From a virus (taxonomy: Duplodnaviria; Caudoviricetes), in IMG/VR virus record IMGVR_UViG_3300033121_001619, positions 1 through 64,000 of that record: 64,000 nt of DNA, one strand, 5' to 3'. The notes beneath the pieces are model-generated. The model saw nothing but the letters and a program-made list of their open reading frames with translations, ran no database searches and was not told where the DNA came from. A program made the translations under genes and the position numbers. How positions within the stretch are numbered: position 1 is the first letter of the stretch; each line of letters opens with the position of its first letter. Shown piece after piece: positions 11,723 through 46,537 of the stretch.

Positions 11723-12024
11723 CGACAGTCATCAACATCCGAGCGATCCATGATGTGCCCTACGTCTACATCGGGAGAGGATCGAAGTGGGGGAATCCCT
11801 ACACGCACCTCGACTCTCGCTATGTCGGTACCGTGAAAGTATCGACACGTGAGGAGGCAGTCGAGTCCTACGAGCGCTACGTCAAGTCCCGCCCCGATCT
11901 GATGGAAGCAGCACGCAAGGAATTGCGCGGCAAGGTACTTGGATGTTTCTGCAAACCCAAAGCGTGTCACGGCGACGTTTTGGCGCGAATAGCTGAGGAA
12001 GAAATCGATGGGCGTGATCAGTAA
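11719..12024 (+). CDS. DUF4326 protein
   Basis: VYIGRGSKWGNPY...ELRGKVLGCFCKPKACHGDVL. Confidence 0.9.
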   Translation: MTTVINIRAIHDVPYVYIGRGSKWGNPYTHLDSRYVGTVKVSTREEAVESYERYVKSRPDLMEAARKELRGKVLGCFCKPKACHGDVLARIAEEEIDGRDQ

Positions 12025-12889
12025 GATTGCATGGTGCGACGGTACGTTCAATCCCTGGATAGGCTGCGACAAGGTCTCTCCGGGATGCAAGAACTGCTAC
12101 GCCGAGAGGATCCAGGGATCATTTGGCGGTGACCTCTGGGGTCCTGGTTCTCGTCGATCCGTCACGTCGACGAAGAATTGGAATGACGTCCTTCGTGCGG
12201 ACAAGTTGACGACGCATCGTCGTCGCCTCTTCGTCGCGTCGTTGTCGGACGTCTTCGAAGATCGCGATGATCTCCACGTCCCGCGTCAGAAGCTGATCGA
12301 TCTCGTCGAGAAGACTATCAACACGGATTGGCTCTTCCTCACGAAGCGTCCGGAGAACGTACTGTCTCTCCTCGACGTCGATGGACCGGGCTGGGGGACG
12401 AGATCGTCTTTCCCCGATCACGTCTGGATCGGGACCACAGTCGAGGATCAGCGACGTTTGGACGAGAGATTGCCCATCCTCGTCCAGATACCGTCTCGTG
12501 TCAAATTCCTGTCGTGTGAGCCGCTCTTGGAGAGAGTCGTCCTAGGATCGCATGCGAGGAATGTGTCGTGGGTCATCGTCGGCGGAGAGTCCGGACGAGG
12601 CGCACGTCCCTTCTCGATGGAGTGGGCCAAATCTCTGCGAGACGAGTGCGCATGCGCCGGCGTGCCTTTCTTCTTCAAGCAGACAGGAGAGCGGGCGTTC
12701 GATGAAGCAGGTCGTCCTATGACAGTGAGAGGTGCAGGTTCGGATCCAGAAGATTGGCCCGAGTGGGCTAGAGAGGCTCGCAGTTTCCCGAGGTTACACG
12801 ACGTCAAATCGGAGAGCTCATCGAGGGTTAACCACGTACGACGTCTCTCCGATTTGACTTTCATACGACCTCGATCGCGAATATCTTGA
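12008..12889 (+). CDS. DUF5131 (phage Gp37/Gp68, radical-SAM-like) protein
   Basis: FNPWIGCDKVSPGCKNCYAE, LTKRPEN, FLSCEPLL, WVIVGGESG, FFFKQ. Confidence 0.92.
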   Translation: MGVISKIAWCDGTFNPWIGCDKVSPGCKNCYAERIQGSFGGDLWGPGSRRSVTSTKNWNDVLRADKLTTHRRRLFVASLSDVFEDRDDLHVPRQKLIDLVEKTINTDWLFLTKRPENVLSLLDVDGPGWGTRSSFPDHVWIGTTVEDQRRLDERLPILVQIPSRVKFLSCEPLLERVVLGSHARNVSWVIVGGESGRGARPFSMEWAKSLRDECACAGVPFFFKQTGERAFDEAGRPMTVRGAGSDPEDWPEWAREARSFPRLHDVKSESSSRVNHVRRLSDLTFIRPRSRIS

Positions 12890-13760
12890 TCTTGCCCAGA
12901 CCGACGACTTCCCTTTCCTCTTCGAATTCGTTGAAATCATCGATCTTGTAGAGGCCGCCAGGTCCGGAGACGAATGAGTCAGGGTTGTCCATGACGTTAG
13001 CGTGCATGATGATCGGCACTTCGGTATCGTCTTCGTAATCACCTCGTGCGAAACTTATCGCGACACGTCGATTCGTCGTCCAAGAAGACGAGTGTCCTGT
13101 CATAGGCTTGTAAGTCTTGGCGACTTTCACGATGTCCCCTGCTTTGAGGGACGACTTTCCAATCAGCTTTCGAATCCATGATTTGCTGACCCTCATTCCT
13201 CGATACACGTTCTTTGCCGACGGACTCTTCAGGACGTCATCGTATTCTCCAGTTGCCATGGCTTTCTTGAGATCGTCGGCTCCGGACGAACTCATGTGGA
13301 TATTGGCACTGAAATGTCGCCACAACTCTTTGCCCACGTCATGCTCAAGACTCGTGTCTGGCTCAGCTGTGAATCCTTTTTGGCCTAGCTGAGACGCTGA
13401 TCTGCCGTCGACGAATGCATAACGTCCGAAAGGTGCGTCATTGGAGCCGGGAAGTTTAGCGATGGTCGATGGTGCCATCGATGTCGCCTTCTTCAACCAC
13501 CTTCGGACGTCTTCGCCCTTCTTTGCACCGACATGCGGCATCAGAGCATACACGAGATCTTCCGGAGTGGACTGTCTTTTTTCGTCACGTCGATCGTATG
13601 TTCGAAAGAATTGATTGAAGAATGACTCTGGCCGAAATCTGGTTGGCTGATGACTAGACGGCACACGAGACAGGACTATCAGCGCATCGTTGACGCTTCC
13701 TTCGCATGCATCTACAAGGTCTTGGACTAGAGTCTCGAGACTCTCATCGCTCTTCATCAT
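12861..13760 (-). CDS. putative ADP-ribosyltransferase (R-S-E clade)
   Basis: C-terminal VYRGM, SSSWTT, FEEEREVV; GAGGAG SD before ATG 13760. Confidence 0.65.
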   Translation of the reverse strand: MMKSDESLETLVQDLVDACEGSVNDALIVLSRVPSSHQPTRFRPESFFNQFFRTYDRRDEKRQSTPEDLVYALMPHVGAKKGEDVRRWLKKATSMAPSTIAKLPGSNDAPFGRYAFVDGRSASQLGQKGFTAEPDTSLEHDVGKELWRHFSANIHMSSSGADDLKKAMATGEYDDVLKSPSAKNVYRGMRVSKSWIRKLIGKSSLKAGDIVKVAKTYKPMTGHSSSWTTNRRVAISFARGDYEDDTEVPIIMHANVMDNPDSFVSGPGGLYKIDDFNEFEEEREVVGLGKIKIFAIEVV

Positions 13761-13775: not shown

Positions 13776-13804
13776 TTGAAAACTCTGACGAGACGACATA
13801 CAAT
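13776..13804 (+). promoter_or_regulatory. sigma70-type promoter of the Pth2/suppressor-tRNA operon
   Basis: TTGAAA(13776-81)-N17-TACAAT(13799-804); ATG 7 nt downstream implies a leaderless mRNA. Confidence 0.75.
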
Positions 13805-13811
13805 ATGTCAC

Positions 13812-13904
13812 ATGATGTTCTAACTGCCTCGTGGCCCTCCTGGGATATCGTTCGTCTCAAAGCGACGTCACAGGAGTCAATTGTCCATGAAGGAAAGTGA
13901 GTGA
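13812..13904 (+). CDS. leader peptide with in-frame UAA at codon 4: MMF*LPRGPPGISFVSKRRHRSQLSMKESE
   Basis: ATG ATG TTC TAA CTG CCT CGT GGC CCT CCT...; TGA 13902-04 ends 3 nt before the next ATG. Confidence 0.6.
13837..13876 (+). promoter_or_regulatory. leader RNA hairpin overlapping the Pro-Pro codons and sequestering CAGGAG
   Basis: CTCCTG/CAGGAG plus GATATCGTT/AGCGACGTC stem, loop CGTCTCAA. Confidence 0.6.
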
Positions 13905-13907
13905 GTC

Positions 13908-14315
13908 ATGAAGCGCATCTACGAAGAAGATCAGAAAGCAGTCTATGGAGCCTTGCGTGAGAAAGCTCGCAAGAGCCAATTGACGAGGTGGGAACACCTC
14001 TTGTACGCGTTCGTGCGAGGAAAGTCTCGCACTGAGGTGGAATCGCGAGTGTCTCACGCGACGGACGTGTTCACGAACAGATTCATTCAGAGCGCATATC
14101 GATCCACGAAGGCGTCCTGGTACTTCAAAACGTCGCTCGATCCCGTCAAGACCTACATCGACAACAATCGTCTCGCTTTCTGTGAGTGGCTATACGCCAA
14201 GGAAAAACCGCACGTGGTCTTTCCAGTCGAGGGCGCGGCGATCAAACGACGCGAGGAGTATCACAGGCGAAAGATCGAGAAATCGAACCTGAGCGAAAAC
14301 GAGGTCTCGCAATGA
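13908..14315 (+). CDS. hypothetical protein translationally coupled to the Pth2-like gene
   Basis: HLLYAFVRGK..EVE motif; TGA 14313-15 overlaps ATG 14312. Confidence 0.8.
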   Translation: MKRIYEEDQKAVYGALREKARKSQLTRWEHLLYAFVRGKSRTEVESRVSHATDVFTNRFIQSAYRSTKASWYFKTSLDPVKTYIDNNRLAFCEWLYAKEKPHVVFPVEGAAIKRREEYHRRKIEKSNLSENEVSQ

Positions 14316-14629
14316 CCTCGTAAGTAGAGAGGCTGTACGTGGTGATCGACTCTTCGATCGACAGGAGGAATTGGATTCCTCAAGTGGCACACGGTGTCGC
14401 CCAGTATTTCATCGATCATCCCGACGAAGCTCGTCGTTGGCACCAGAATGGAAACACAATCGTGTGCTTGTCGGCGACAGACGGTGATCACTTGCAGGAC
14501 ATCCTATCGAGATCGATTGGGTGCGTCTCGACGTTCAGTGAACCTGACATGGGCGACCGAATGACGGTCGTCGTGCTAGAAGACGTGAACGGAAGGCTCC
14601 TGAGAAAACTCAAGTTGATAACGCCTTGA
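14312..14629 (+). CDS. peptidyl-tRNA hydrolase 2 (Pth2)-like protein with in-frame UAA at codon 4
   Basis: MTS*VERLYVVID...QVAHG...W...TIVCL...FSEPDMGDRMTVV; SD GAGGT 14301-05 and ATGA coupling support start 14312; TAA at 14321-23. Confidence 0.75.
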
Positions 14630-14634
14630 CATAC

Positions 14635-14659
14635 GTCGGACGGGTGTAACTCGTCCGAC
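14635..14659 (+). other. strong hairpin immediately 5' of the tRNA
   Basis: GTCGGACG-GGTGTAACT-CGTCCGAC. Confidence 0.7.
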
Positions 14660-14661
14660 AC

Positions 14662-14733
14662 GTCTCCCTGGTCCAATGGCAGGGCACGCGACTTTAATTC
14701 GCAGTGATGTCGGTTCGAATCCGACGGGAGGCA
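14662..14733 (+). tRNA. ochre suppressor tRNA, anticodon UUA
   Basis: acceptor GTCTCCC/GGGAGGC, D stem GTCC/GGGC, anticodon arm CGCGA-CTTTAAT-TCGCA (TTA at 14694-96), T arm GTCGG-TTCGAAT-CCGAC, discriminator A; CCA not encoded. Confidence 0.9.
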
Positions 14734-14775
14734 CAAGTGATGAAAAGATCGACGTCGCCGTTGTAGGATTGTATC

Positions 14776-15083: not shown

Positions 15084-15518
15084 ATGAAGCACGACTCATC
15101 CGACGCGACGTGGCATGAAGAAAACAACTACGACATCCGCACGGCGCTGTCCGTCCTTCTAGACGCTGTGGAGGATGCTGTAAAAAATGACATGCACGAA
15201 GCTATCGTGTCTTTGACGAAGCTCTTGAAAATCAAGGCCGGTCTTGAGTCCGCCATGCGGCACGGTATTCTCGAACCGTGGAATCTCTACGTTGAATCTG
15301 GTGGTGTGGAAGAAGGAGTCACTACCCTCGCAATTATCCCGTCACACGACTTCCATGGAATCAGGTCTCTCCTGGGACTTAAGGGCGACGAGGCTTTGCC
15401 TCAACCTCATGCGACGTTCGTCGCTGGGACCAGGTCGCACGCGAGGACCATCGCAGAGTACATCGTGCACAAGGAGAACTCATCGTTGCCCGTGAATGAA
15501 ACCGAGGACACGCCATGA
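15084..15518 (+). CDS. hypothetical protein (likely leaderless)
   Basis: ATGACA-N18-TAGGAT, 6 nt before ATG. Confidence 0.65.
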   Translation: MKHDSSDATWHEENNYDIRTALSVLLDAVEDAVKNDMHEAIVSLTKLLKIKAGLESAMRHGILEPWNLYVESGGVEEGVTTLAIIPSHDFHGIRSLLGLKGDEALPQPHATFVAGTRSHARTIAEYIVHKENSSLPVNETEDTP

Positions 15519-15871
15519 GATGTGTCCTGGTCTGCAGTGGCAGGAATTACGACGACGCTGAGTGTGTGAAGTCTCACCTCGATCGACTCCACGCTGACGA
15601 ACCCATCGACGTCTTGATAGAGGGCGGAGCACAAGGAGCTGACGAGCTAGCCCGATGGTGGGCGAGAGACAATGGAATTGAAGTGGAAACTTATGTGGCC
15701 GATTGGCATGGTTTCGGTCGAAGGGCTGGACCGATACGGAATCAGCGAATGATCGATGAAGGTCGACCAACCCTTGTCGTCGCATTTCCAGGAGGAGCTG
15801 GTACGGCTGACATGGTCCGGAGAGCGCGAGAAGCAAACGTGAAAGTCGTCATGGTCGAGGAGGATTCGTAG
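15515..15871 (+). CDS. DUF2493 / YspA-like SLOG family protein
   Basis: VLVCSGRNY, IEGGAQGADELA, AGPIRNQRM, VAFPGGAGTADM. Confidence 0.9.
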   Translation: MRCVLVCSGRNYDDAECVKSHLDRLHADEPIDVLIEGGAQGADELARWWARDNGIEVETYVADWHGFGRRAGPIRNQRMIDEGRPTLVVAFPGGAGTADMVRRAREANVKVVMVEEDS

Positions 15872-22417: not shown

Positions 22418-22734
22418 TCTCGACGCAAGGAGACCAAATGGGACCCAACGACTTGTTTGCGGCGGCCATCGTCGTACTCATTCTTGGACCGGTCGTCGTG
22501 GCCATCGGAAAGTACGTCTATCCCGGGAGGTCGACGAATGAGTAGCATCATCGATGCCAGGGACCGATTCGGGCGTCGAAAGGACGTCTTCACGTCGACG
22601 GACGGTCATCTTCGTGTACAGATGACGTCGACCAATCGTTTGATCGTCACGTGTTCGGAGAAGACGACGCTCGAATTCACCGACGTCGTCTGTCTCATGA
22701 CGTCGCTTCAAGCAGCACTCGAGGAAAGGTGAGA

Positions 22735-23577
22735 ATGACGACCCTAGAAGATTCGAAGAAGAAGCAGCGGACGAAGTCATCGAAGAAGGCGGAGACAGCG
22801 ACCGACAACATCTCCACCTACCTGCAGGACGTCAGGGGACACTCGATGTTGAGTCACGAAGAGCTCGTGCGTCTCTTCGTGACATACAACGAGGGCGGCC
22901 CCGGGAGCGAGGCCGCGAAGAAGCGCCTCATCGAGGCGAATCTACGTCTCGTCATATCCATCGCGAAGAAGCACAATCGCGGAAAGAGCGGGTCGCTAGA
23001 CGACCTCATCCAAGAGGGCAACATCGGCCTGATGAAGGCGGTCGACAAGTTCGATCACAAGAAGGGGTATCGTTTCTCCACGTACGCCACGTGGTGGATC
23101 AAGCAGGCAATTGCCCAACATTCTCTGAAGGGACGTCGCACGATCAGGCTGCCGGCGCACGCCATCAACGTCCAGAAGCGGATAATCGACGCGACGAATG
23201 CCCTCAAGGCATCGACGGGATCCTCTCCCAGTCCGGAAGAGGTGATGGACGCCGTGAAGGCTTCAGAGACCGTCATGAAAGCGACGATGATGGTCGGTCG
23301 CGACACCGTGTCACTCAACCAGACGTTCACGATGGACCCAGAGTCGGGTTGCATCGAGGACAGGATCGAGGACATTCGTCCCGAGTCGAATCCCTTCGAG
23401 TGTCTCGCATCCAAGGAGCTGCGTGACGTCGTCAAGTCTGTGCTGTCCTCTCTCACTGATAAAGAGGCAGCAATCGTCAAGTTGCGTTTCGGCCTTCTCG
23501 ACGAACCTTCTGGTGAAGAATACGACATGTCGCCGGAGGAAGTCGCAACAGCGACGCGGTCCGGACGAATAGGGTGA
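22735..23577 (+). CDS. sigma70-family (RpoD-like) factor lacking region 4.2
   Basis: [70 protein letters not shown] then premature end. Confidence 0.9.
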
Positions 23578-28400: not shown

Positions 28401-29372
28401 TCACGTGAGATTCAGACCGGTGGAGTCTCCTCCCCAGGGAATGACGACTTGACCGATCGACATGAATGAATTCGTACCATCGCCCGGGTAACCTTCGCCA
28501 GAGACGACTGACGCACTACCGAACCAGATGTCCTGTAGCGTACCGTGACGTCCTCTGACACCCGTCGTCGTGGAAGCGAATGCTATCGGGAACATGGGCC
28601 ACGTCCCGTCGACCTCATTGGCGATGTTACCGAACGTCACGTCATTGACAGCCATGGCGGTGGTGGTGCCCTCTGACAGGACCTGAAGAGTCGCAGTAGT
28701 TCCGGCGATCTTGGCTCGTCCTAGGGTGGAGAGGTTGCTAGGCGACATCGTAAGACCGGTGGATGAAGCGTATATGAGGCTGAAAGATCCGCTCACCCAC
28801 CCGCTCGTGGAGTTGGTAGGCTTATCGAGGATCCATAGACCGGTCACGCCCCCCGCGGCACACGTTATGACACGCGTGCACTGTCCGTCAGTGCTGACGG
28901 CGACTGAGTAACGATGTTGCGCGTCGCCGCTGTTCGTTCCGAACGACGTGGAGGAGATGAGGGCGATCTCGTCGCCGGCGTACGGTCTATTCGTCAAATT
29001 CCCGCCGGAGAAAGATGCCGAAGGAGAGCAGATGATCGACCAGTTGGGCGTACCGGAGTTCAGGATGTCGAAGCAAATCTCATAGTTGTTTGCAATGCCC
29101 GTTTGCCTGAGGACTATCCACGAGTGAGCAACTCCGGGAGCTCCACCAACGATGTCTGCGTCGGTGACCCACCTGTCGACGCCATCTCCCACGCTTCCCG
29201 TATTGACACCGTTCGACGAATAACGAACGACCCACGGGCTCGACGCCACTCCGCTCAAGGCGTCCTTGATCGTGCGAATGAGTCTCTTTCCATTCGCCAA
29301 GACGGACCCCTGTGCTGCGTTCGTGTTATTCCTGCTGTACTGCCATGTCTTGGATGGTGTGGGTAGCGCCAT
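28401..29372 (-). CDS. putative virion/tail protein
   Basis: S/T/G-rich beta protein in structural module. Confidence 0.7.
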   Translation of the reverse strand: MALPTPSKTWQYSRNNTNAAQGSVLANGKRLIRTIKDALSGVASSPWVVRYSSNGVNTGSVGDGVDRWVTDADIVGGAPGVAHSWIVLRQTGIANNYEICFDILNSGTPNWSIICSPSASFSGGNLTNRPYAGDEIALISSTSFGTNSGDAQHRYSVAVSTDGQCTRVITCAAGGVTGLWILDKPTNSTSGWVSGSFSLIYASSTGLTMSPSNLSTLGRAKIAGTTATLQVLSEGTTTAMAVNDVTFGNIANEVDGTWPMFPIAFASTTTGVRGRHGTLQDIWFGSASVVSGEGYPGDGTNSFMSIGQVVIPWGGDSTGLNLT

Positions 29373-29390
29373 GAATTCCTCAACGACTAC

Positions 29391-31985
29391 TTATAAGGTC
29401 CACTTCAGACTCATGTACCCGGCGTAACACAGGATTTGATCGGTCGATAGTCCACCCGTTCGCTTCAATTGGACCTTGTACGAGTTCGATCCTGTCAAGA
29501 CGTCCGGATCGGCACCTATCGTGAGCGACGACGACAGGATCTCCACGTCGGAGAGACCCGCAGAAGTCCCCGTGATCAGAGAGCTATTGATCTCCACGCC
29601 GCTGTCTTTACTCAAGAGACGTATCGATGCCGTGACTGAAGCCGTCAGTATCTGCAGGGCGACGACGTACGACAATGTCTTAGTCGATCCTGTCAGGTTA
29701 GGCGACTCGTTCCTCGGATCGAAAGGTATGATGCCGATGGTCGTCCACGAATCGCTGGTCGTCGTCTGAAGTCCGGACACTCCGTAGAAGTTTCTCGTCA
29801 TCGGAAGGAGCGTATTCGTGGTCGCCAGTGACGATCCGGACACCGTCAACGAACCTGACACCACGACATCTCCACCGAAGACGGTCTTCCTGGCGCTACT
29901 TCCTGCTAGCCCCACGGTGCCGGACACGAACACGAAGTTGTCAGTCCCCATTTGATAGGACGACGTGATGACGGCGAGGTCGGCGCCAGCGATGACGAAG
30001 TCGCCGGCGAGCTCTAGACCGCCCTGCATCCTGCTCCTGACGGTGGAGTGACCGATGGTGATGTATGACGCTCCCTGGCTGGAAGCTCCGATCTGGATGA
30101 CTCCTGGTGACGATCCGGAGCCGGCGGTGATGGTCACGTTACCATCGGACCCAGTTCCGTGACCGATGCCTGTCCGTATGACGACGTCGCCTCCGGATCC
30201 ATCGGTAAGCTTGCCGTCGCCCGACGTTATGATGACGCTACCTCCGACTTGGCTGTGCGAGCCTGTCGAGTGAGTGCCAGCCGTCACGAGGACGTTCCCG
30301 CCCAACGTCGACGTTTGCTTCACTATCTTGAGATTGCCGGCATTCTCCGACCTGAGGTCGATCGTCGACCCGAGTATCGTGACGTCTCCTCGTGGTCCAA
30401 ACGTGAACGTATTGTTGTTGAAGGATCCGAAACCGGCCTCGATATTGATGTTTCCCGGAGTACCCGCGGCGGCAGTGTCGTTTCTGTCTCCAGCGTTTCC
30501 ACCGTAGATGTTGACGGTACCGCCCGATCCGGCCTTGCCCGCCGAGGCAGCTGACCCGCCAGATCCGGCCGACAACGTCATATCACCGCCGGTGCCTCCG
30601 GCTCCGGCTGTACCCGTCGATGCACTGCCTCCCGATCCAGCAGTCACCGAGACGTATCCGCCGGATCCAGCAGTGCCGTCCTCACAGTCACCACCGTTTG
30701 CTGAGAGGATCTCGACGTATCCGCCGGATCCTCCGTCGGCCACGGATCCCGTGACAGCAACGGAGGATCCTCCTCTAAGTGAGAGACCTCCGCCCGACGC
30801 TCCATAGTCGGTCGGACCAAGATTGATGGTTCCTGTCCCTGGAGACGCCGTCATCCTCAGCTCCGGGCCGGATGAGGACGATGCCAGACCGCGTATCTCC
30901 CTGCCCGTCACGACGAGGACCCCACCGCCGGAAGGAGTCTCTCCCACGGCTGACGCGAAGGGAGGATAGTTCGATCCTATCTTGATCGATCCGCTTGATA
31001 CGACGTCTCCCCCGAAAACTGCCATTCTACCAGAAGAGGAACTGACGTCTCCTACCGTGCCAGAGACGTAGAAGTAGACGTTCGATCCGATCTGATACGA
31101 CGACGTTAGACCAGATAGACCGACGAGAGCCAATGAACCGGTCCCGTATACCGATCCAGCGAGAGAGCTGCCAAAGTAATTCTCGGATCCGCTGCCCCCG
31201 CCGCCCGTCGACGATATTGTGATCTGACCGTTCGACGCGCTAGTGATGGTGACGTTGCTACCGGCGACCATGAACGACGTTCCGTCGGATAGTCTAGTGA
31301 GAGATCCGGAGATGCCCCCGACCGCTGTGATGCTTCCACTGCTCTTCAGTGACCCGCCGAATACCGACGTCGCTCCGGAGGAAGTCGATCCGGACACGAA
31401 GAAGACTACGTCGGTTCCGATCTCGTAGGAGTAACGACCCTCGGGATCGAAGGAGGCCGCGTAATCTGTCTTGGCTCTCTTTGACGGACTGTCCGTCGAC
31501 ACGAAGATGGCGCTTCCTTGACCGAACGTCTTTCTCCACGTGAGAGACGTCGATCCCACCGTGATTGGATCCGACGTGGTGAGGAGGAATCCCCAGCCTC
31601 CGTTCGACGTTCCTGTCTCGACGGCCACGGCGGCCATCGACGATAGCATCCCTTGGACGGCATCGTCCGATCTCGTCATGGAATACGACGACACCAGGCT
31701 GTTCCACACGTAGTCGTAGATGCCATTGTCAATCGACGACGATTGACCAAATAGAAGGACTCTGACCGACTCAGACGTCGAGAGGCTCACTCCGTCGACC
31801 GTGAGAGATACTCCGCCTGACAACGGCACGTGCGTCGTCGAAGCGACTACGACTGAATCCTTCCAGTCGAGCCGAAGTATGTCCTCCGTCGTCGCCACGG
31901 ATCCCATGACTGTCTCGATCCGAGGCGTAGGCCTCGTGTACGAGTAGACCTTGCGGTACCGCTGCGCGTCTCTTGTTCTAGTCAT
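29391..31985 (-). CDS. tail fibre-like protein
   Basis: WKDSVVVAST...VDGV...RVLL..Q..NGIY N-terminal domain; Gly-rich GG.V.I.AG repeats. Confidence 0.75.
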   Translation of the reverse strand: MTRTRDAQRYRKVYSYTRPTPRIETVMGSVATTEDILRLDWKDSVVVASTTHVPLSGGVSLTVDGVSLSTSESVRVLLFGQSSSIDNGIYDYVWNSLVSSYSMTRSDDAVQGMLSSMAAVAVETGTSNGGWGFLLTTSDPITVGSTSLTWRKTFGQGSAIFVSTDSPSKRAKTDYAASFDPEGRYSYEIGTDVVFFVSGSTSSGATSVFGGSLKSSGSITAVGGISGSLTRLSDGTSFMVAGSNVTITSASNGQITISSTGGGGSGSENYFGSSLAGSVYGTGSLALVGLSGLTSSYQIGSNVYFYVSGTVGDVSSSSGRMAVFGGDVVSSGSIKIGSNYPPFASAVGETPSGGGVLVVTGREIRGLASSSSGPELRMTASPGTGTINLGPTDYGASGGGLSLRGGSSVAVTGSVADGGSGGYVEILSANGGDCEDGTAGSGGYVSVTAGSGGSASTGTAGAGGTGGDMTLSAGSGGSAASAGKAGSGGTVNIYGGNAGDRNDTAAAGTPGNINIEAGFGSFNNNTFTFGPRGDVTILGSTIDLRSENAGNLKIVKQTSTLGGNVLVTAGTHSTGSHSQVGGSVIITSGDGKLTDGSGGDVVIRTGIGHGTGSDGNVTITAGSGSSPGVIQIGASSQGASYITIGHSTVRSRMQGGLELAGDFVIAGADLAVITSSYQMGTDNFVFVSGTVGLAGSSARKTVFGGDVVVSGSLTVSGSSLATTNTLLPMTRNFYGVSGLQTTTSDSWTTIGIIPFDPRNESPNLTGSTKTLSYVVALQILTASVTASIRLLSKDSGVEINSSLITGTSAGLSDVEILSSSLTIGADPDVLTGSNSYKVQLKRTGGLSTDQILCYAGYMSLKWTL

Positions 31986-32070
31986 GGATCGATCTATTCC
32001 TCTTGAACGTCCGGATGGACACCGCATCTAAATAGAGGGTGAGGTCACGTCACCTCAGGAGGTATCTAGA

Positions 32071-43188: not shown

Positions 43189-44688
43189 TCAGATCACCAC
43201 CCTGAAGACAGGAGAGACGTTTTCTCTCAAGCGACGCGTCAGTCCCTCAACGATCAAGACGTCGAAAGCGTACGTCCTTCCTGAGATGAGGCACGAAGTA
43301 TCCAGTTCGAAGTACATGCCGCTGGAGTCCGACGACATTCTCGTGGATCCCAAGTTAGTATCGAAGTCGATGACCCTCTCTCCCTTCGCGACGTCTCGAA
43401 CGGCGTAGTGCATCTCGTTCAGGACGATGCCGGACCTGACTGTCGGTACGCGGACGACCTGGACGTTGGGCGAAGCGTCGTCGAACACGTCGACTCGTAT
43501 CAGGGCCACCTCGTTCGACGTGTACTCCTCCCTGACGTTGCTGAAGTTGATCGTTCGACGTTCCCTACCGTACTCTCCCGATCGATCCGGTCTTCGAAAC
43601 GACACCACGCTACCCGTGTGAAAGACCGACTGGCCATCGAGCGAAGTCCATACGGGCGTGAAATCGATCGAAGAACTGTCGACCAACTTCGTTCGAATGA
43701 CGGCGTCGAACTCCGAGATGTTGACGGATGCACTGTAGACGCCCGATGCGAACAGGATGCCGCGACTTCCATACGAAGCCTGCGATCCCGTCACGACATA
43801 CGTGTACTGCCCACCCGATATGGGAGTTGTCAACCTCAGGGCGACGCAGTTGCTTCCCGTCAACGTGGTCGAACCGGTCGTCAGGTTCGTCAGGATTCCG
43901 TTGACATGATTGAACATGAATAGACGATTAGAAGTTCCCAGGACTGGGTTGGCCGTCATGTCGCGAAGTGAGTCATCGAATCCCACTTCGAGACGGGGTC
44001 GAAGGTAACTGTCGTACGCATCTTTCGATGCGAATCTCTTCACGAAGTAAGTCCCCGAATCCAACTCGATGGACGACGTGAATGTCAGCCTGAAGCCCGA
44101 GTCCGGTATGTCACCCTCTAGCGTTGCTGACATTAGACGAGTGACGTCTATCACCAGATCTTCCTCACCTGTGACGAAAGACTGAGTGACCTCCGTCGAA
44201 GTCAGGAGACTCGATGCTGTTATGTAGTCGCCCAGACCGGTCGAATGACATGGCCCAGCACATCCAGAAACATACCAGGGTATTCCGAGAGACGACGACA
44301 ACCAGTTACAGGTGTCTCTATCGGAGAGATAAACCACGTCCTTTCCGTGACCCTCTCTGAACGATGCCGACAACGGGAATATGCTCACGGTGAAGTTGGA
44401 CGGAGTGGGTTGACCTCCGTACACGTCACGCAAACGAATCTTGCACCAGAATGATGGGTCGCCGTGGTCGATCCTTCCCTCGTCGACGGCGTCACGAAGT
44501 CCCTGAGTATCGAACTTGATCAGGACGCACGTCTTTTCGACGACGGACGTCGAGGCCGAGATCTCATTGTAGAGCTTGTACAGATCGAGAGTCCCGGCTC
44601 GGCCGACGTTCGACGACGTGCGTCGAGTCCCCTTCACGATCTTGTTCGTGATGTACGTGTCTTGGGTCGCCCAATAAGTCTTACGCAT
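43189..44688 (-). CDS. virion structural protein
   Basis: QDTYIT, LIKFD, FVKRFAS, PRLEV; in baseplate operon. Confidence 0.7.
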   Translation of the reverse strand: MRKTYWATQDTYITNKIVKGTRRTSSNVGRAGTLDLYKLYNEISASTSVVEKTCVLIKFDTQGLRDAVDEGRIDHGDPSFWCKIRLRDVYGGQPTPSNFTVSIFPLSASFREGHGKDVVYLSDRDTCNWLSSSLGIPWYVSGCAGPCHSTGLGDYITASSLLTSTEVTQSFVTGEEDLVIDVTRLMSATLEGDIPDSGFRLTFTSSIELDSGTYFVKRFASKDAYDSYLRPRLEVGFDDSLRDMTANPVLGTSNRLFMFNHVNGILTNLTTGSTTLTGSNCVALRLTTPISGGQYTYVVTGSQASYGSRGILFASGVYSASVNISEFDAVIRTKLVDSSSIDFTPVWTSLDGQSVFHTGSVVSFRRPDRSGEYGRERRTINFSNVREEYTSNEVALIRVDVFDDASPNVQVVRVPTVRSGIVLNEMHYAVRDVAKGERVIDFDTNLGSTRMSSDSSGMYFELDTSCLISGRTYAFDVLIVEGLTRRLRENVSPVFRVVI

Positions 44689-46537
44689 TCGACACGACCC
44701 TTCCCGTGATGTTGACGTCTGGGTATTTGAGCTCGAATATCCCGCCCTCTGGCGGATAGATCAGTTGACTTCGAGTGTTTGCCGTCATGTCATAAGCCAC
44801 TGGGGAATAGGTCAAATTCTTGACTGGACCTGTGAGGTTGTTGATCCTCACGGAGTCGACCGCTATGACGCCTTGATGAGAGAAGATCGATGCCACGATC
44901 TCCGAAACGACGAGCGGTTGTCCTATGTGGAAGTTGTTGATCGCCAAGAGGGATCTCAAGTCCCTGATGATGGTCTGTAGCAAGATGGACTTGTTGAGGG
45001 TCGGATCAACTACCACCTGGAAGAGGACCTCGTAATTGATGACGGCGGCGTCCATGATGTCGATCGACTCTGAGTTCATGCGATATCGACTCAGATACCT
45101 CTTGAGATTCATCTTCAAGGCGTCTGGCGACGTCGTCAATCGATCGTCGTTATCACGAGAGATGATGTAGAGACGAGAGGACAGCGGACTGACGGGGTTC
45201 CTACCTACGGATGCCCTGAACACCCTCCCGAAGTTGCTGGGCATGGTGTACACTCTCGCGAGGAGGTCTTCCTTGGAGACTATCCTCTCCTGAGTGTTCT
45301 TGGCTGTAGGCACCAACGCCAGGAGGTCGTCAGCTGTAGGGGCGTCGTCCCCTCCTCGCGCCTCTAGAGGATTGGAAGTCTCGATCGAATTCCTCACTTG
45401 GGCCGCCCGACCAGGCTCTGGGTTTCCAGGGAAATTCAGGGAGAGACCCGTGATGGTTCGTATCGTGTTGGGGCGAGCGTTGTGGTTCTTGCCTCCTCCG
45501 TATCGATACGTGACCGTGAGGGTCGTGTTAGCTGCGGCGACTCCCAATGTTGTCGTCTGCAAAAGCCGGTGAGGATTGACCGGGGTGCTCGAGAACGTCT
45601 GTGAGAACGGCATCGGTATCGAGAACTCCGAAGGATCTGGTATGATGTCGTCCTCCAAGTCGTCCGCCGTCCCACCTCCGAATATCAGCGTCGTCTTCCT
45701 AGTGCTAAGAGAAGTCTCAGACACGAAACGATACGGCGCTGGGACGACCTTCAAGTTGTCCTTCACGCTTACGTCTCCGGTGTTGTTTGCCACGTTCTTA
45801 TAGACGACGTCGTGCGTGAGATTCTCGACTTCGTAGTAGTCGTTCCCCAGGCCGTCAGTGACACTGATGATCTGCGTCACGTTCGATTGGGCCAACTGTA
45901 TGCGTCGAAAAGCCGAGAAATCTCCGATGGTGAAAGTCTCGGACGTCTGAGTTCCGGAGCTACAGAGTCCTCTCTTCCTCAAGACCTTGGAGACGACGGA
46001 GCCAGACACTCTCCTTCCGTTTGTCACTTCGACGTCAGACGCCACCCTGATGACTCCGTCGGAATCGACGGTCCAGAACTCGACGTCTTCCATCAGCGTG
46101 AAATCGATTCCGGAGTTCGATCTCAGCGTGGTCTGCGACTTGATGGTCGGGATCAGGTCGGGATCGGGTCGAAGGCTGCCGTCTTGAAGCACCGGTACTT
46201 CCACGTAGAAATCTTGGTAGACGACCGCGGCCGAGGCTCCCGCTATGGGAATTCCGGCCTGTCTTATGATGCGTTCCTTGTTGCGTGTCTCGACCACCGT
46301 GTCACTATTCAGCTCTCCGTAGAGATGGTCCAGATAGAACGACAGGTTGTCACCCACGGTGGCCGCCATGTCGAGGAAGAGACCTCCAAGACTCGACTCC
46401 GAGAAGTCCTTGATCCGATCCGGGTAGTATTTTGCGGCGTAATCCAGAAGTACTGCGCGAAAAGAATCGAAGTCCCGAGCGAGGTAATTCCTCTGTCTGA
46501 CGGGCTTGAGTGAATTCCTTGCGTCGTTGGTGGCCAT
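44681..46537 (-). CDS. baseplate wedge protein (T4 gp6-like)
   Basis: YLARDFDSFR..L...YYPD...DFSESSLGGLFLDMAA.VGD.LSFYLD; QERIVSKED. Confidence 0.85.
   Translation of the reverse strand: MATNDARNSLKPVRQRNYLARDFDSFRAVLLDYAAKYYPDRIKDFSESSLGGLFLDMAATVGDNLSFYLDHLYGELNSDTVVETRNKERIIRQAGIPIAGASAAVVYQDFYVEVPVLQDGSLRPDPDLIPTIKSQTTLRSNSGIDFTLMEDVEFWTVDSDGVIRVASDVEVTNGRRVSGSVVSKVLRKRGLCSSGTQTSETFTIGDFSAFRRIQLAQSNVTQIISVTDGLGNDYYEVENLTHDVVYKNVANNTGDVSVKDNLKVVPAPYRFVSETSLSTRKTTLIFGGGTADDLEDDIIPDPSEFSIPMPFSQTFSSTPVNPHRLLQTTTLGVAAANTTLTVTYRYGGGKNHNARPNTIRTITGLSLNFPGNPEPGRAAQVRNSIETSNPLEARGGDDAPTADDLLALVPTAKNTQERIVSKEDLLARVYTMPSNFGRVFRASVGRNPVSPLSSRLYIISRDNDDRLTTSPDALKMNLKRYLSRYRMNSESIDIMDAAVINYEVLFQVVVDPTLNKSILLQTIIRDLRSLLAINNFHIGQPLVVSEIVASIFSHQGVIAVDSVRINNLTGPVKNLTYSPVAYDMTANTRSQLIYPPEGGIFELKYPDVNITGRVVSNA

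What the first reader, a model, noticed from the sequence alone, without database searches (positions are those of the whole stretch)
13776..14733. Ochre-suppressor-gated operon: UAA leader, coupled gene, UAA-interrupted Pth2 and its own UUA-anticodon tRNA
Seen: a promoter (TTGAAA-N17-TACAAT); a leaderless ORF ATG ATG TTC TAA continuing LPRGPP... to a TGA 3 nt before gene 13908; that gene ATGA-coupled to a Pth2-like gene reading ATG ACC TCG TAA GTA GAG AGG CTG TAC GTG; then a hairpin and a cloverleaf tRNA with anticodon UUA. Two UAA codons, both at codon 4, sit in one apparent transcript with the tRNA that decodes UAA. Other genes still end in TAA (5084, 9727, 20517, 29391, 51862, 55135), so this is local gating rather than genome-wide recoding. 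Known: Pth recycles dropped-off peptidyl-tRNA, and very short ORFs (lambda bar minigenes) promote drop-off. Inference: a translational switch in which competition between suppressor tRNA and release factors sets Pth2 output, either as positive feedback or as a sensor of termination or tRNA stress such as host anti-phage attack on translation. I know of no description of this arrangement.
Basis: partly seen in the sequence, partly recalled or inferred. Interest (0 to 1): 0.95.

Follow-up and report, generated by a model that had tools for sequence, protein, structure and literature searches.

The report
Ochre-suppressor-gated stalling leader and Pth2 operon
A large wastewater phage carries a small operon in which both a tiny ribosome-stalling leader and a peptidyl-tRNA-hydrolase-like gene are interrupted by a UAA stop that only the operon's own UAA-reading tRNA can override, so it looks like a natural, apparently undescribed switch that reports whether stop-codon read-through is working.

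Summary
ARAGORN and Rfam confirm a tRNA with anticodon UUA at 14662-14734. Upstream lie a promoter-like site, a leader reading M-M-F-UAA-L-P-R-G-P-P, unknown gene X, and a Pth2-fold gene reading M-T-S-UAA-V-E-R-L-Y.

In 98 clusters of related phage loci, 59 Pth2-like genes have an in-frame stop at codon 2-5 with no start codon after it: 58 TAG and 1 TAA (this window). Twenty-three clusters carry a leader of the form M-x(1-6)-stop-x(2-9)-R-[GAS]-P-P. The stop follows the neighbouring suppressor anticodon: TAG with CUA in 17 leaders, TAA with UUA in 3 of 3, never TAA with CUA.

The Gly-Pro-Pro codons pair with the Shine-Dalgarno sequence of the next gene. TAA still ends 17 of about 148 genes here, so this is local gating, not genome-wide recoding.

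Best reading: read-through lets the ribosome reach RGPP and stall, which unmasks the downstream start sites. A second UAA then gates the Pth2-like enzyme.

I found no paper describing this. The scan has already noted the amber (UAG) version in at least 54 other genomes. This window is the rare ochre version and the only one I saw with UAA at both gates. Nothing has been tested at the bench.

The parts
13776..13804 (+). Promoter-like site TTGAAA-N17-TACAAT. Its -10 hexamer ends 7 nt before ATG 13812, so the leader mRNA would be leaderless or nearly so.
   Evidence: Consensus scan, 10 of 12 matches. The same TTGACA-N17-TAnnnT-N6-9-ATG layout precedes the leaders of L014, L025, L028, L179, L220 and others.
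13812..13904 (+). Leader ORF: M-M-F, UAA gate at 13821-13823, then L-P-R-G-P-P (Arg 13830, Gly 13833, Pro 13836, Pro 13839), continuing to TGA 13902-13904.
   Evidence: Sequence. It is the only such motif in the 126-kb record, against 0.4 expected by chance. The leader is conserved in 23 clusters with the stop matched to the anticodon. L009 encodes LPRGPP with different codons: CCA, AGA, CCG, CCC.
13836..13876 (+). Hairpin in which the Pro-Pro codons (CCUCCUG, 13836-13842) pair with a Shine-Dalgarno-like CAGGAG (13871-13876).
   Evidence: Minimum-free-energy folds. P(unpaired) of CAGGAG rises from 0.01 to 0.58 when 13824-13850 is covered by a stalled ribosome. The same pairing of Gly-Pro-Pro codons with GGAGG is seen in 12 or more other leaders.
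13887..13904 (+). Short in-frame ORF M-K-E-S-E-stop, 10 nt after the masked CAGGAG. It ends 3 nt before the start of gene X and is a likely relay to X by re-initiation.
   Evidence: Sequence. P(unpaired) of AUG 13887 rises from 0.50 to 0.96, and of AUG 13908 from 0.06 to 0.42, in the stalled state. The relay itself is inferred.
13908..14315 (+). Gene X, 135 aa, helical and of unknown family. It carries the motif R..(L/I)AY..(L/V)RG..Y..(I/V)E and is the conserved partner between the leader and the Pth2-like gene.
   Evidence: Alignment of 26 syntenic homologues. AlphaFold2 model with pLDDT 76, all helical. No match in PDB or the Atlas.
14312..14629 (+). Pth2-like gene. ATG 14312 has a GAGG Shine-Dalgarno 7 nt upstream and an ATGA overlap with X. 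It reads M-T-S, then the UAA gate at 14321-14323, then V-E-R-L-Y-V-V... The gene caller's start is GTG 14339.
   Evidence: Sequence. Family consensus is M-x-(K/R)-L-Y-V-V. The model has pLDDT 96.9 with strand 1 = RLYVVID. Pth2 fold matches at TM 0.77-0.83. 59 clusters share the early-stop layout.
14635..14659 (+). Hairpin (8-bp stem GTCGGACG/CGTCCGAC, 9-nt loop) 2 nt before the tRNA, with no T-run. It is probably a processing or 3'-end-protecting structure rather than a terminator.
   Evidence: Sequence. No terminator-like site was found. A comparable hairpin precedes the tRNA in L009. The function is inferred.
14662..14734 (+). Ochre suppressor tRNA: anticodon UUA (14694-14696), class I, 73 nt, A73, no encoded CCA. 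The amino acid it carries is unknown.
   Evidence: ARAGORN. Rfam tRNA, 51.8 bits. It is not orthologous to the suppressors of L009, L014 or L025.

Best explanation
This is a suppressor-tRNA-gated operon with two UAA gates in series.

A sigma-70-like promoter makes a transcript that begins at or next to the leader's ATG.

Without an active UAA-reading tRNA, ribosomes terminate after M-M-F. The downstream RNA stays folded, with the Pro-Pro codons (CCUCCUG) paired to a Shine-Dalgarno-like CAGGAG and the start of gene X buried.

When the phage's own tRNA(UUA) reads the UAA, the ribosome goes on to L-P-R-G-P-P. [quoted passage not shown] The stalled ribosome holds the 5' arm of the hairpin, which frees CAGGAG, AUG 13887 and AUG 13908, so gene X is translated.

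Ribosomes finishing X re-initiate at the overlapping ATG 14312 and meet the second UAA at codon 4. Only read-through gives the full Pth2-like enzyme. Its output would therefore rise steeply, roughly with the square of suppression efficiency.

The tRNA lies on the same transcription unit behind a hairpin.

Shown here: the sequence features, the Pth2 fold, the conservation of both gates, and the match between stop codon and anticodon. Inferred: the stall, the unmasking of the start sites, the coupling between genes, and the purpose. The likely purpose is to make X and the hydrolase only once nonsense suppression is active, for example to recycle peptidyl-tRNA produced when ribosomes run past stop codons.
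For: 1. The tRNA(UUA) is real.

2. Pth2-like gate.
- In 98 clusters at 70% identity, 59 have an in-frame stop with no ATG, GTG or TTG between it and the conserved K/R-L-Y strand. These are 58 TAG and 1 TAA, with no TGA.
- The 39 normally started genes have TGA 15, TAA 14 and TAG 10 as their nearest upstream stop.
- A start codon lies 1-5 codons before the stop in 56 of 59.
- The base after the stop is a purine in 57 of 59, against 26 of 39 in the controls.

3. Where a suppressor tRNA lies in the 5-kb locus, it can decode the gate in every case: TAG with cta 46, TAG with cta plus tta 1, TAG with tta 1, TAA with tta 1.

4. Leader.
- 23 clusters carry one: TAG with cta 17, TAA with tta 3 (this window, L025 and L014, whose record's only tRNA is tta), TAG with tta 1, TAG with no suppressor tRNA in the 5-kb locus 2.
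- TAA is never paired with cta.
- By my own hypergeometric arithmetic, placing all 3 TAA leaders among the 4 tta loci of 21 has a chance of 4/1330.

5. The closest relative, L009/L012, has the same gene order (DUF5131 42% identical, Pth2-like 38%). It has TAG at both gates and a non-orthologous CUA tRNA.

6. The constraint acts on the peptide. Arg of RGPP uses AGA 11 times and CGN 12 times, and Gly uses all four codons.

7. The Gly-Pro-Pro codons pair with the next gene's GGAGG in this window and 12 or more other leaders. P(unpaired) of the masked sites rises when a stalled ribosome is imposed.

8. Strand 1 of the model is RLYVVID at pLDDT about 96, so GTG 14339 would cut it. K-L-Y aligns with residues 2-4 of solved Pth2.

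9. TAA is a working stop elsewhere: 17 of 148 crude genes, 94% coding density under code 11.

10. From the literature: RGPP and RSPP are listed among RAPP-like arrest motifs (PMC10987492). [quoted passage not shown]
Against: - There is no experiment of any kind.
- The fold of this window's leader alone is not exceptional (z = -1.42).
- Here the masked CAGGAG precedes a 5-codon ORF rather than X itself, and X's own Shine-Dalgarno is weak, so a relay step must be assumed.
- GTG 14339 has a good GAGAGG 6 nt upstream. It could give a suppressor-independent, N-truncated protein, so the second gate may leak.
- The record is only 38% complete by CheckV. In-frame TAA codons in the unseen part cannot be excluded.
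- The window's protein is below Pfam's PTH2 threshold. In the profile alignments the Lys-Gly-Lys segment of canonical Pth2 is not kept, so hydrolase activity is not assured.
- The public RNA-library data are contigs and do not show transcription.
- Clusters are not phylogenetically independent counts.
Confidence: 0.75

Rival explanations
1. Annotation artefact or chance. The Pth2-like gene simply starts at GTG 14339 behind its GAGAGG Shine-Dalgarno. The MTS-TAA and MMF-TAA frames are accidental short ORFs in untranslated RNA, and the tRNA merely happens to lie nearby.
For: The gene callers of the public collections start the protein at GTG 14339, giving 96 aa. GAGAGG lies 6 nt upstream of it. 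One regex match per 126 kb is not by itself significant, with 0.4 expected.
Against: - The same layout recurs in 59 clusters for the gene and 23 for the leader, on the same strand and at the same relative position.
- The residues between the stop and the GTG (R-L-Y) are the conserved start of strand 1.
- LPRGPP is kept in L009 with different codons.
- The stop type follows the anticodon.
Confidence: 0.04
2. Genome-wide recoding. The phage reads TAA as a sense codon throughout, or in late genes, as TAG- and TGA-recoded phages do. The two UAAs would then be ordinary recoded codons rather than dedicated gates.
For: The phage has its own suppressor tRNA. TAA is the rarest stop, at 17 of 148. 62% of the genome is unseen. 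About 10 of 55 amber-type loci gain more than 0.10 coding density with TAG read-through, so some relatives may be recoded.
Against: - Coding density is 94% under code 11.
- Removing TAA as a stop adds only about 10% to total ORF length, against 37% for TAG and 150% for TGA.
- Long genes, including a gene with a weak baseplate-wedge match at its N-terminus (44681-46537), end in TAA.
- No other convincing TAA-interrupted gene was found in 126 kb.
- The gates sit at codon 2-5 in gene after gene, which random recoding would not produce.
- A published survey found no TAA-recoded jumbo phages (PMC13037316).
Confidence: 0.07
3. The stops are gates read by the tRNA, but the leader acts otherwise than by stall-dependent unmasking of a Shine-Dalgarno. 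One option is control of Rho-dependent or intrinsic termination, so that translation of the operon permits transcription to reach the tRNA gene (positive feedback). Another is that it acts as a brake, sequestering ribosomes when suppression is too high.
For: The tRNA lies downstream in the same apparent unit with no terminator between. In several relatives RGPP is followed at once by a stop, for example L020, L023 and L152, which fits a pure sensor peptide. Synthetic TAG-gated leaders work through unmasking of a rut site (PMC6412442).
Against: The pairing of Gly-Pro-Pro codons with the next gene's GGAGG is the most regular RNA feature across leaders. This is the signature of translational unmasking. 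No attenuator-type terminator is seen in the window.
Confidence: 0.12
4. Termination and re-initiation without suppression. The 2-4 codon ORFs are start-stop or minigene elements that load ribosomes. These then re-initiate at a non-canonical codon just after the stop, so the tRNA is not needed.
For: The ATGA overlap and very short ORFs are typical of coupling. The codon after the stop is often ATH (Ile), a weak start.
Against: The codon after the stop varies: Ile, Val, Gly, Asn, Leu, Lys, Thr. It is GTA in this window and GGC in L009. This model does not explain why the stop is TAG 58 times, TGA never, and TAA only where the tRNA is UUA. It also does not explain the purine bias after the stop.
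Confidence: 0.03

Closest known systems
RAPP/RGPP-type regulatory arrest peptides (ApdA, ApdP, ApcA, the RQH family; SecM with RAGP)
   Same: A short upstream ORF ends in or contains R-(A/G/S)-P-P. [quoted passage not shown] The stalled ribosome would open a stem that hides the Shine-Dalgarno of the next gene (PMC7897499, PMC10987492, PMC10951233).
   Different: - The motif is reached only by reading through a stop codon.
- The peptide is about 10 residues, with no signal or membrane segment.
- It sits in a phage, ahead of X and a Pth2-like gene rather than secA, secDF or yidC.
- The signal sensed would be suppressor-tRNA activity, not protein export.
Phage 'code change modules' and suppressor tRNAs of stop-codon-recoded phages (Borges et al., bioRxiv 10.1101/2021.08.26.457843)
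   Same: A phage-encoded suppressor tRNA is grouped with translation-related genes. The general idea is that stop codons delay expression until the tRNA is present.
   Different: - Those modules contain aminoacyl-tRNA synthetases and release factors and are written in standard code. That paper does not mention a hydrolase or a leader.
- Here the genome keeps TAA as a stop, and the gated genes are the tRNA's own neighbours.
- The stop here is UAA, which surveys report as not reassigned in phages (PMC13037316).
Synthetic amber-gated leader-peptide switches for unnatural amino acids (Liu et al. 2011, as reviewed in PMC6412442)
   Same: A TAG placed in a leader peptide makes downstream expression depend on a suppressor tRNA.
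   Different: Those are engineered, built on the tna/trp leaders, and act on transcription through a rut site. This one is natural, uses an RGPP arrest motif with anti-Shine-Dalgarno pairing, and adds a second gate in the enzyme gene.
prfB (RF2) autoregulation by an early in-frame UGA
   Same: An early in-frame stop makes the output of a translation factor depend on competition at that stop. This comparison rests on my own knowledge.
   Different: prfB needs a +1 frameshift and senses release factor 2. Here the frame continues unchanged past the stop, and the stop follows a tRNA anticodon.
Lambda bar minigenes and peptidyl-tRNA hydrolase
   Same: ORFs of two to three codons ending in a stop, which in E. 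coli promote peptidyl-tRNA drop-off and create a need for Pth.
   Different: No evidence here that drop-off matters. The conserved feature is the match between stop and anticodon and the open frame after the stop, which bar minigenes lack.
Canonical Pth2 (archaeal/eukaryotic peptidyl-tRNA hydrolase 2; MJ0051, Bit1/PTRH2, S. solfataricus Pth)
   Same: Same fold, TM 0.77-0.83. The profile matches only Pth2 chains. The N-terminal strand K-x-x-V-V-x-R-x-D-L is shared.
   Different: About 13-20% identity. The family is shorter by a loop after the acidic motif and has E-P-D where DAG stands. The Lys-Gly-Lys segment is not kept. Activity is untested.

Membership tests
RAPP-like arrest peptides (ApdA/ApdP/RQH) | R-(A/G)-P-P motif in a short upstream ORF | tested here: met
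   RGPP at 13830-13841. RGPP, RAPP or RSPP is present in 23 related leaders. RGPP and RSPP are listed among RAPP-like motifs in PMC10987492.
RAPP-like arrest peptides (ApdA/ApdP/RQH) | The stall site lies so that a stalled ribosome opens a stem masking the downstream ribosome-binding site | tested here: met
   In silico only. CCUCCUG pairs with CAGGAG. P(unpaired) rises from 0.01 to 0.58 for the Shine-Dalgarno and from 0.06 to 0.42 for X's AUG. The same pairing is seen in 12 or more other leaders.
RAPP-like arrest peptides (ApdA/ApdP/RQH) | Demonstrated ribosome stalling | not testable with these tools
   Needs toeprinting or in-vitro translation with the suppressor tRNA.
RAPP-like arrest peptides (ApdA/ApdP/RQH) | Monitoring substrate: export signal or membrane segment, upstream of sec or yidC genes | tested here: not met
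   The peptide is about 10 residues with no hydrophobic segment. The downstream genes are X and a Pth2-like gene. It works like these peptides but is not a member of the Sec/YidC monitoring families.
Pth2 (Pfam PF01981) | Score above Pfam's gathering threshold | tested here: not met
   13.4-13.7 bits against 23. However, 44 of 48 aligned relatives hit PTH2 at E up to 0.01, best 9e-12, and the family profile hits only Pth2 chains in PDB.
Pth2 (Pfam PF01981) | Pth2 alpha/beta fold | tested here: met
   Model pLDDT 96.9. Foldseek matches 2zv3, 1q7s, 3erj, 1wn2 and 1xty at probability 1.00 and TM 0.77-0.83.
Pth2 (Pfam PF01981) | Catalytic residues and peptidyl-tRNA hydrolase activity | tested here: inconclusive
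   The invariant E-P-D aligns near the DAG acidic motif, but the Lys-Gly-Lys segment is not conserved. Activity needs an assay.
Ochre suppressor tRNA | Cloverleaf tRNA with anticodon UUA | tested here: met
   ARAGORN. Rfam RF00005 at 51.8 bits. The anticodon is unchanged in 7 contigs, and no difference is listed there in 4 public runs.
Ochre suppressor tRNA | Is aminoacylated and reads UAA in vivo | not testable with these tools
   The only support is indirect: TAA gates occur only beside UUA tRNAs.
Stop-codon-recoded phage (alternative genetic code) | The stop is no longer used as a terminator, and coding density rises markedly when it is read as sense | tested here: not met
   TAA ends 17 of 148 crude genes. 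Density is 94% under code 11. The gain from TAA read-through is small. Only 38% of the genome is available.
prfB-type programmed frameshift at an early stop | The downstream frame is shifted by +1 relative to the start | tested here: not met
   Both gated frames continue in the same frame after the UAA.

The most novel reading that the evidence does not exclude
Phages carry a dedicated, modular sensor of genetic-code state: a stop-gated RGPP arrest leader, protein X, and a stop-gated Pth2-like enzyme beside a suppressor tRNA. The gating codon is re-tuned whenever the tRNA is exchanged, with UAG for CUA and UAA for UUA. The ochre version in this window would then be a natural case of gene expression that depends on UAA suppression in a phage that otherwise terminates at UAA. 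The double gate would work as an ultrasensitive or bistable commitment switch into a suppression mode of the infected cell. X and the hydrolase would handle the resulting read-through products or the stalled leader itself.
Probability: 0.55. Interest if true: 0.9.

Novelty: new variant of a known kind. Interest (0 to 1): 0.85.

Why it matters
If the model holds, this is a natural riboregulator whose input is nonsense suppression itself. That input is not known for any leader peptide and until now has been built only by synthetic biologists.

- **Control of a risky tool.** It would show how phages that keep the standard code control a suppressor tRNA that could damage their own translation.
- **Evolution of recoding.** It would give a direct handle on the early steps by which stop codons become reassigned.
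- **Two unexplained proteins.** It assigns a context to two widespread phage proteins of unknown role, X and the Pth2-like hydrolase.
- **The ochre version as evidence.** The gate codon changes together with a non-orthologous tRNA, which is hard to explain unless the tRNA reads the gate. UAA suppression is also the kind that surveys of phage recoding report as absent.
- **A compact tool.** The element is about 100 nt and could serve as a portable reporter of suppressor-tRNA activity.

Tried and rejected
**Searches and jobs that gave nothing usable**
- A single-protein scan of viral contigs found no relative.
- Alignments A2 and A7 were too diverse for the pattern scan.
- blastn against deposited phages found no match.
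- Gene X: Pfam and PHROGs gave nothing significant. Foldseek on PDB had no match at E up to 0.001. VIA-align gave a best Z of 3.8. The Atlas had no usable hit.
- The complex prediction of X with the Pth2-like protein gave no verdict. I draw nothing from it.
- The RF-1 domain search found nothing in the 126-kb record.
- The public runs laid on the region are contigs. Long contigs in RNA libraries cannot show transcription, ends or strand.
- A generic scan of the record for other start-x(0-4)-TAA-long-ORF frames gave only background.

**Ideas considered and dropped**
- *The stop is used as a start codon by an initiator-like tRNA.* Dropped because the tRNA has a G1-C72 pair and lacks the three G-C pairs in the anticodon stem that mark bacterial initiators (sequence; the criterion is from my own knowledge).
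- *RGPP is only a by-product of an anti-Shine-Dalgarno RNA element.* Dropped because Arg, two codons upstream of CCUCC, is kept with both AGA and CGN codons.
- *The tRNAs are one orthologous lineage with a mutated anticodon.* Dropped because they differ in class and in the acceptor stem.

**Left open**
- The amino-acid identity of the tRNA. A73 and U35 would fit Lys, but that is only a recollection.
Full report
**What is in the window.**
The window is the first 64 kb of a 126,319-bp linear IMG/VR virus record that CheckV rates 38% complete. That points to a phage of roughly 300 kb.

- A promoter-like site, TTGAAA-N17-TACAAT, lies at 13776-13804 (10 of 12 matches).
- Seven nucleotides later comes ATG ATG TTC TAA, then CTG CCT CGT GGC CCT CCT (L-P-R-G-P-P). 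This frame stays open to TGA 13902-13904.
- Gene X runs from ATG 13908 to a TGA that overlaps ATG 14312.
- Then comes ATG ACC TCG TAA GTA GAG AGG CTG TAC GTG GTG..., open to 14629.
- An 8-bp hairpin lies at 14635-14659.
- A tRNA lies at 14662-14734 with anticodon TTA (ARAGORN; Rfam tRNA 51.8 bits).

The region sits between a minus-strand gene ending near 13760 and the plus-strand operon.

**Not sequencing errors.**
Seven near-identical contigs from other JGI samples carry both TAAs and the TTA anticodon. The only variant near the second gate is C/T at 14333, which is CTG or TTG, both Leu in the extended frame. Four further public runs from two studies list no differences at 13821-23, 14321-23 or 14694-96. 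The stretch is held by wastewater, aquaculture and freshwater metagenomes of at least 12 studies.

**Not genome-wide recoding.**
- A crude gene set of 148 ORFs covers 94% of the record under code 11 and ends in TGA 106, TAG 25 and TAA 17 times.
- Removing TAA as a stop lengthens total ORF content by about 10%, against 37% for TAG and 150% for TGA.
- The merged frames are small 3' extensions or neighbouring genes that happen to share a frame.
- Long genes end in TAA, among them 29391-32027 and 44681-46537. The latter has a weak baseplate-wedge match at its N-terminus.
- A scan for other start-x-TAA-long-frame arrangements found only background.
- The RGPP-type leader occurs once in 126 kb.
- The unseen 62% of the genome remains a caveat.

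**The gene is Pth2-like and starts upstream of the called GTG.**
Pfam PTH2 is below threshold on this protein (E = 0.09), and two PHROGs match at about 1e-6. An exhaustive HMMER search gave 205 representatives. Of 48 aligned members, 44 hit PTH2.

The family's N-terminus is M-x-(K/R)-L-Y-V-V-x-R-x-D-L. This aligns with residues 2 onward of solved Pth2 proteins.

The AlphaFold2 model of the frame from 14324 has pLDDT 96.9, with strand 1 = R-L-Y-V-V-I-D. It matches only Pth2 structures at TM 0.77-0.83.

GTG 14339, the gene callers' start, would remove three of the seven strand residues. ATG 14312 has its own GAGG 7 nt upstream and the ATGA overlap with X.

**The early stop is a family trait.**
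I fetched 227 IMG/VR loci with three pattern scans and analysed them together with a few further viral and metagenome loci and the window. For each I located the domain with a family HMM on stop-masked frames and called tRNAs with ARAGORN.

Of 199 loci in 98 clusters at 70% identity, 59 clusters have an in-frame stop with no ATG, GTG or TTG between it and the K/R of K-L-Y.
- The stop is TAG in 58, TAA in 1 (this window) and never TGA.
- The 39 normally started genes have TGA 15, TAA 14 and TAG 10 as their nearest upstream stop.
- A start codon lies 1-5 codons before the stop in 56 of 59, most often 2 or 3. This window has 3.
- The base after the stop is a purine in 57 of 59, against 26 of 39 in controls. 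From memory, that is the context reported to favour suppression.
- The codon after the stop varies (Ile, Val, Gly, Asn, Leu, Lys, Thr), which argues against a hidden non-canonical start.

**The leader is conserved too.**
The closest relative, L009/L012, is about 40% identical in DUF5131 and in the Pth2-like protein and has the same gene order. It reads M-(A-A-M)-L-TAG-L-P-R-G-P-P with different codons: CCA, AGA, CCG and CCC in place of CCT, CGT, CCT and CCT. Its leader ends in ATATGA on the start of X. Its X gene ends in a TAG that is in frame with G-K-L-Y-I-V-V, and its tRNA has anticodon CTA.

A regular expression for M-x(0-7)-stop-x(0-12)-R-(A/G/S)-P-P found such leaders in 23 clusters. Nearly all lie on the Pth2 strand, 350-1100 nt upstream of the gene. 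There was one spurious minus-strand hit.

The constraint is on the peptide. Arg uses AGA 11 times and CGN 12 times, and Gly uses all four codons. The first Pro is CCT in 18 of 23, as expected if it also serves as an RNA pairing partner. By my reading of the leader sequences printed, twenty of the 23 leaders have no canonical start codon between the stop and Arg.

**The stop follows the anticodon.**
For the leaders:

| Leader stop | Suppressor tRNA found | Clusters |
|---|---|---|
| TAG | CUA | 17 |
| TAA | UUA | 3 |
| TAG | UUA only | 1 (L169) |
| TAG | none in the 5-kb locus | 2 |

The three TAA leaders are this window, L025 (a complete 377-kb genome) and L014. The single tRNA found in L014's 242-kb record has anticodon UUA.

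For the Pth2 gates the counts are TAG with CUA 46, TAG with both 1, TAG with UUA 1 and TAA with UUA 1.

TAA never stands beside a CUA-only locus. The one 'mismatch', TAG with UUA, is allowed by wobble: from my own knowledge, ochre suppressors of E. coli also read UAG.

By my own arithmetic, the chance of placing all three TAA leaders among the four UUA loci of 21 is 4/1330. The clusters are not fully independent. However, the three ochre tRNAs are not orthologous: they are 73 nt class I, 76 nt, and 91 nt with a long variable arm.

**How the leader would act.**
Across leaders, the Gly-Pro-Pro codons (GGN CCU CCN) pair with the GGAGG that precedes the next gene's ATG by 4-10 nt. This holds in L009, L014, L025, L030, L032, L035, L048, L068, L079, L138 and L152.

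In this window CCUCCUG (13836-42) pairs with CAGGAG (13871-76). AUG 13887 follows 10 nt later and opens a 5-codon ORF that ends 3 nt before X. An outer stem also buries AUG 13908.

I then imposed a ribosome with Pro 13836 in the P site, which is the stalled state solved for RAPP peptides (PMC10951233). The probability of being unpaired rises:
- from 0.01 to 0.58 for CAGGAG,
- from 0.50 to 0.96 for AUG 13887,
- from 0.06 to 0.42 for AUG 13908.

The fold of the window's leader alone is not unusual against shuffles (z = -1.42). The argument therefore rests on recurrence, not on energy.

Several leaders, this one included, follow a TTGACA-N17-TAnnnT box by 6-9 nt without a Shine-Dalgarno, so they are probably leaderless. 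Others have a Shine-Dalgarno.

**Gene X.**
A gene of 90-170 aa lies between the leader and the Pth2-like gene in most loci. It shares the motif R..(L/I)AY..(L/V)RG..Y..(I/V)E. The window's X is helical (pLDDT 76) and matches nothing known. In L009, read-through of the TAG would fuse X to the Pth2-like protein.

**Literature.**
Full-text searches found no paper linking suppressor tRNAs, Pth2 or arrest leaders in phages.
- The main survey of phage recoding describes code-change modules of tRNA, synthetase and release factor, but no hydrolase and no leader.
- A 2026 jumbo-phage survey reports no TAA recoding.
- RGPP and RSPP are recognised RAPP-like arrest motifs, although most such motifs inside ordinary proteins arrest poorly.
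- Engineered switches with a TAG in a leader peptide exist.

**Earlier notes of this scan.**
After I had found the pattern, a look-up showed 61 notes in at least 54 other genomes describing amber versions of the same design, with follow-up agents reaching similar readings. Those are unchecked AI notes. My counts come from my own loci. What this window adds is the ochre version, with UAA at both gates.

**Verdict.**
- The reading of a locally gated, suppressor-dependent operon is supported by comparative evidence.
- The stall, the unmasking of the start sites, the coupling between genes and the physiological purpose are inferred.
- The design is a new variant of leader-peptide and arrest-peptide regulation with a new kind of input, and I found no published description of it.

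Noticed in passing
window 28401-32027 (-): The 878-aa gene 29391-32027 ends in TAA and is in the same frame as the next gene (ATG 29372, 323 aa), 6 codons away. Ochre suppression would therefore give a fusion of about 1,200 aa. This may be chance (1 in 3). Neither protein matches a PHROG.
   Followed up: partly
L009:2617-3294 (also L012): In the closest relative, gene X ends in a TAG that is in frame with the Pth2-like gene, with no Shine-Dalgarno or start codon between. Read-through would therefore make an X-Pth2 fusion protein.
   Followed up: partly
L169 (IMG/VR record of 169 kb, complete): Both the leader and the Pth2-like gene are gated by TAG, but the only suppressor tRNA in the 5-kb locus has anticodon UUA. 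Local coding density rises from 0.71 to 0.86 with TAG read-through. This may be a TAG-recoding phage that relies on a UUA tRNA reading UAG by wobble.
   Followed up: partly
L025:1526-1561: In this ochre-type leader the codon right after the TAA is ATG (M-T-H-F-L-TAA-M-P-R-G-P-P). RGPP might therefore also be reached by re-initiation, which would make that gate less strict than the one in the window.
   Followed up: no
window 12008-12889 (+) versus L002-L006: The DUF5131 gene is a 293-aa ORF in the window. In near-identical contigs it is called as only 143 aa, with a minus-strand ORF over its first half. This could be a strain difference or a gene-calling difference.
   Followed up: no
window 22651-23577 (+): A phage-encoded sigma-70-family factor (phrog_351, E = 2e-57).
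   Followed up: no
window 15515-15871 (+): A YspA/SLOG-family protein (PF10686, E = 3e-19) lies about 0.8 kb downstream of the tRNA.
   Followed up: no
G000:C1:120126-120200: The only other tRNA in the 126-kb record is tRNA-Thr(CGT).
   Followed up: no
L072, L073, L074: Some Pth2-like loci carry a tRNA with anticodon UCA (opal suppressor). My regular expression found no TGA-gated leader or gene there, so an opal version of the module remains unseen.
   Followed up: partly
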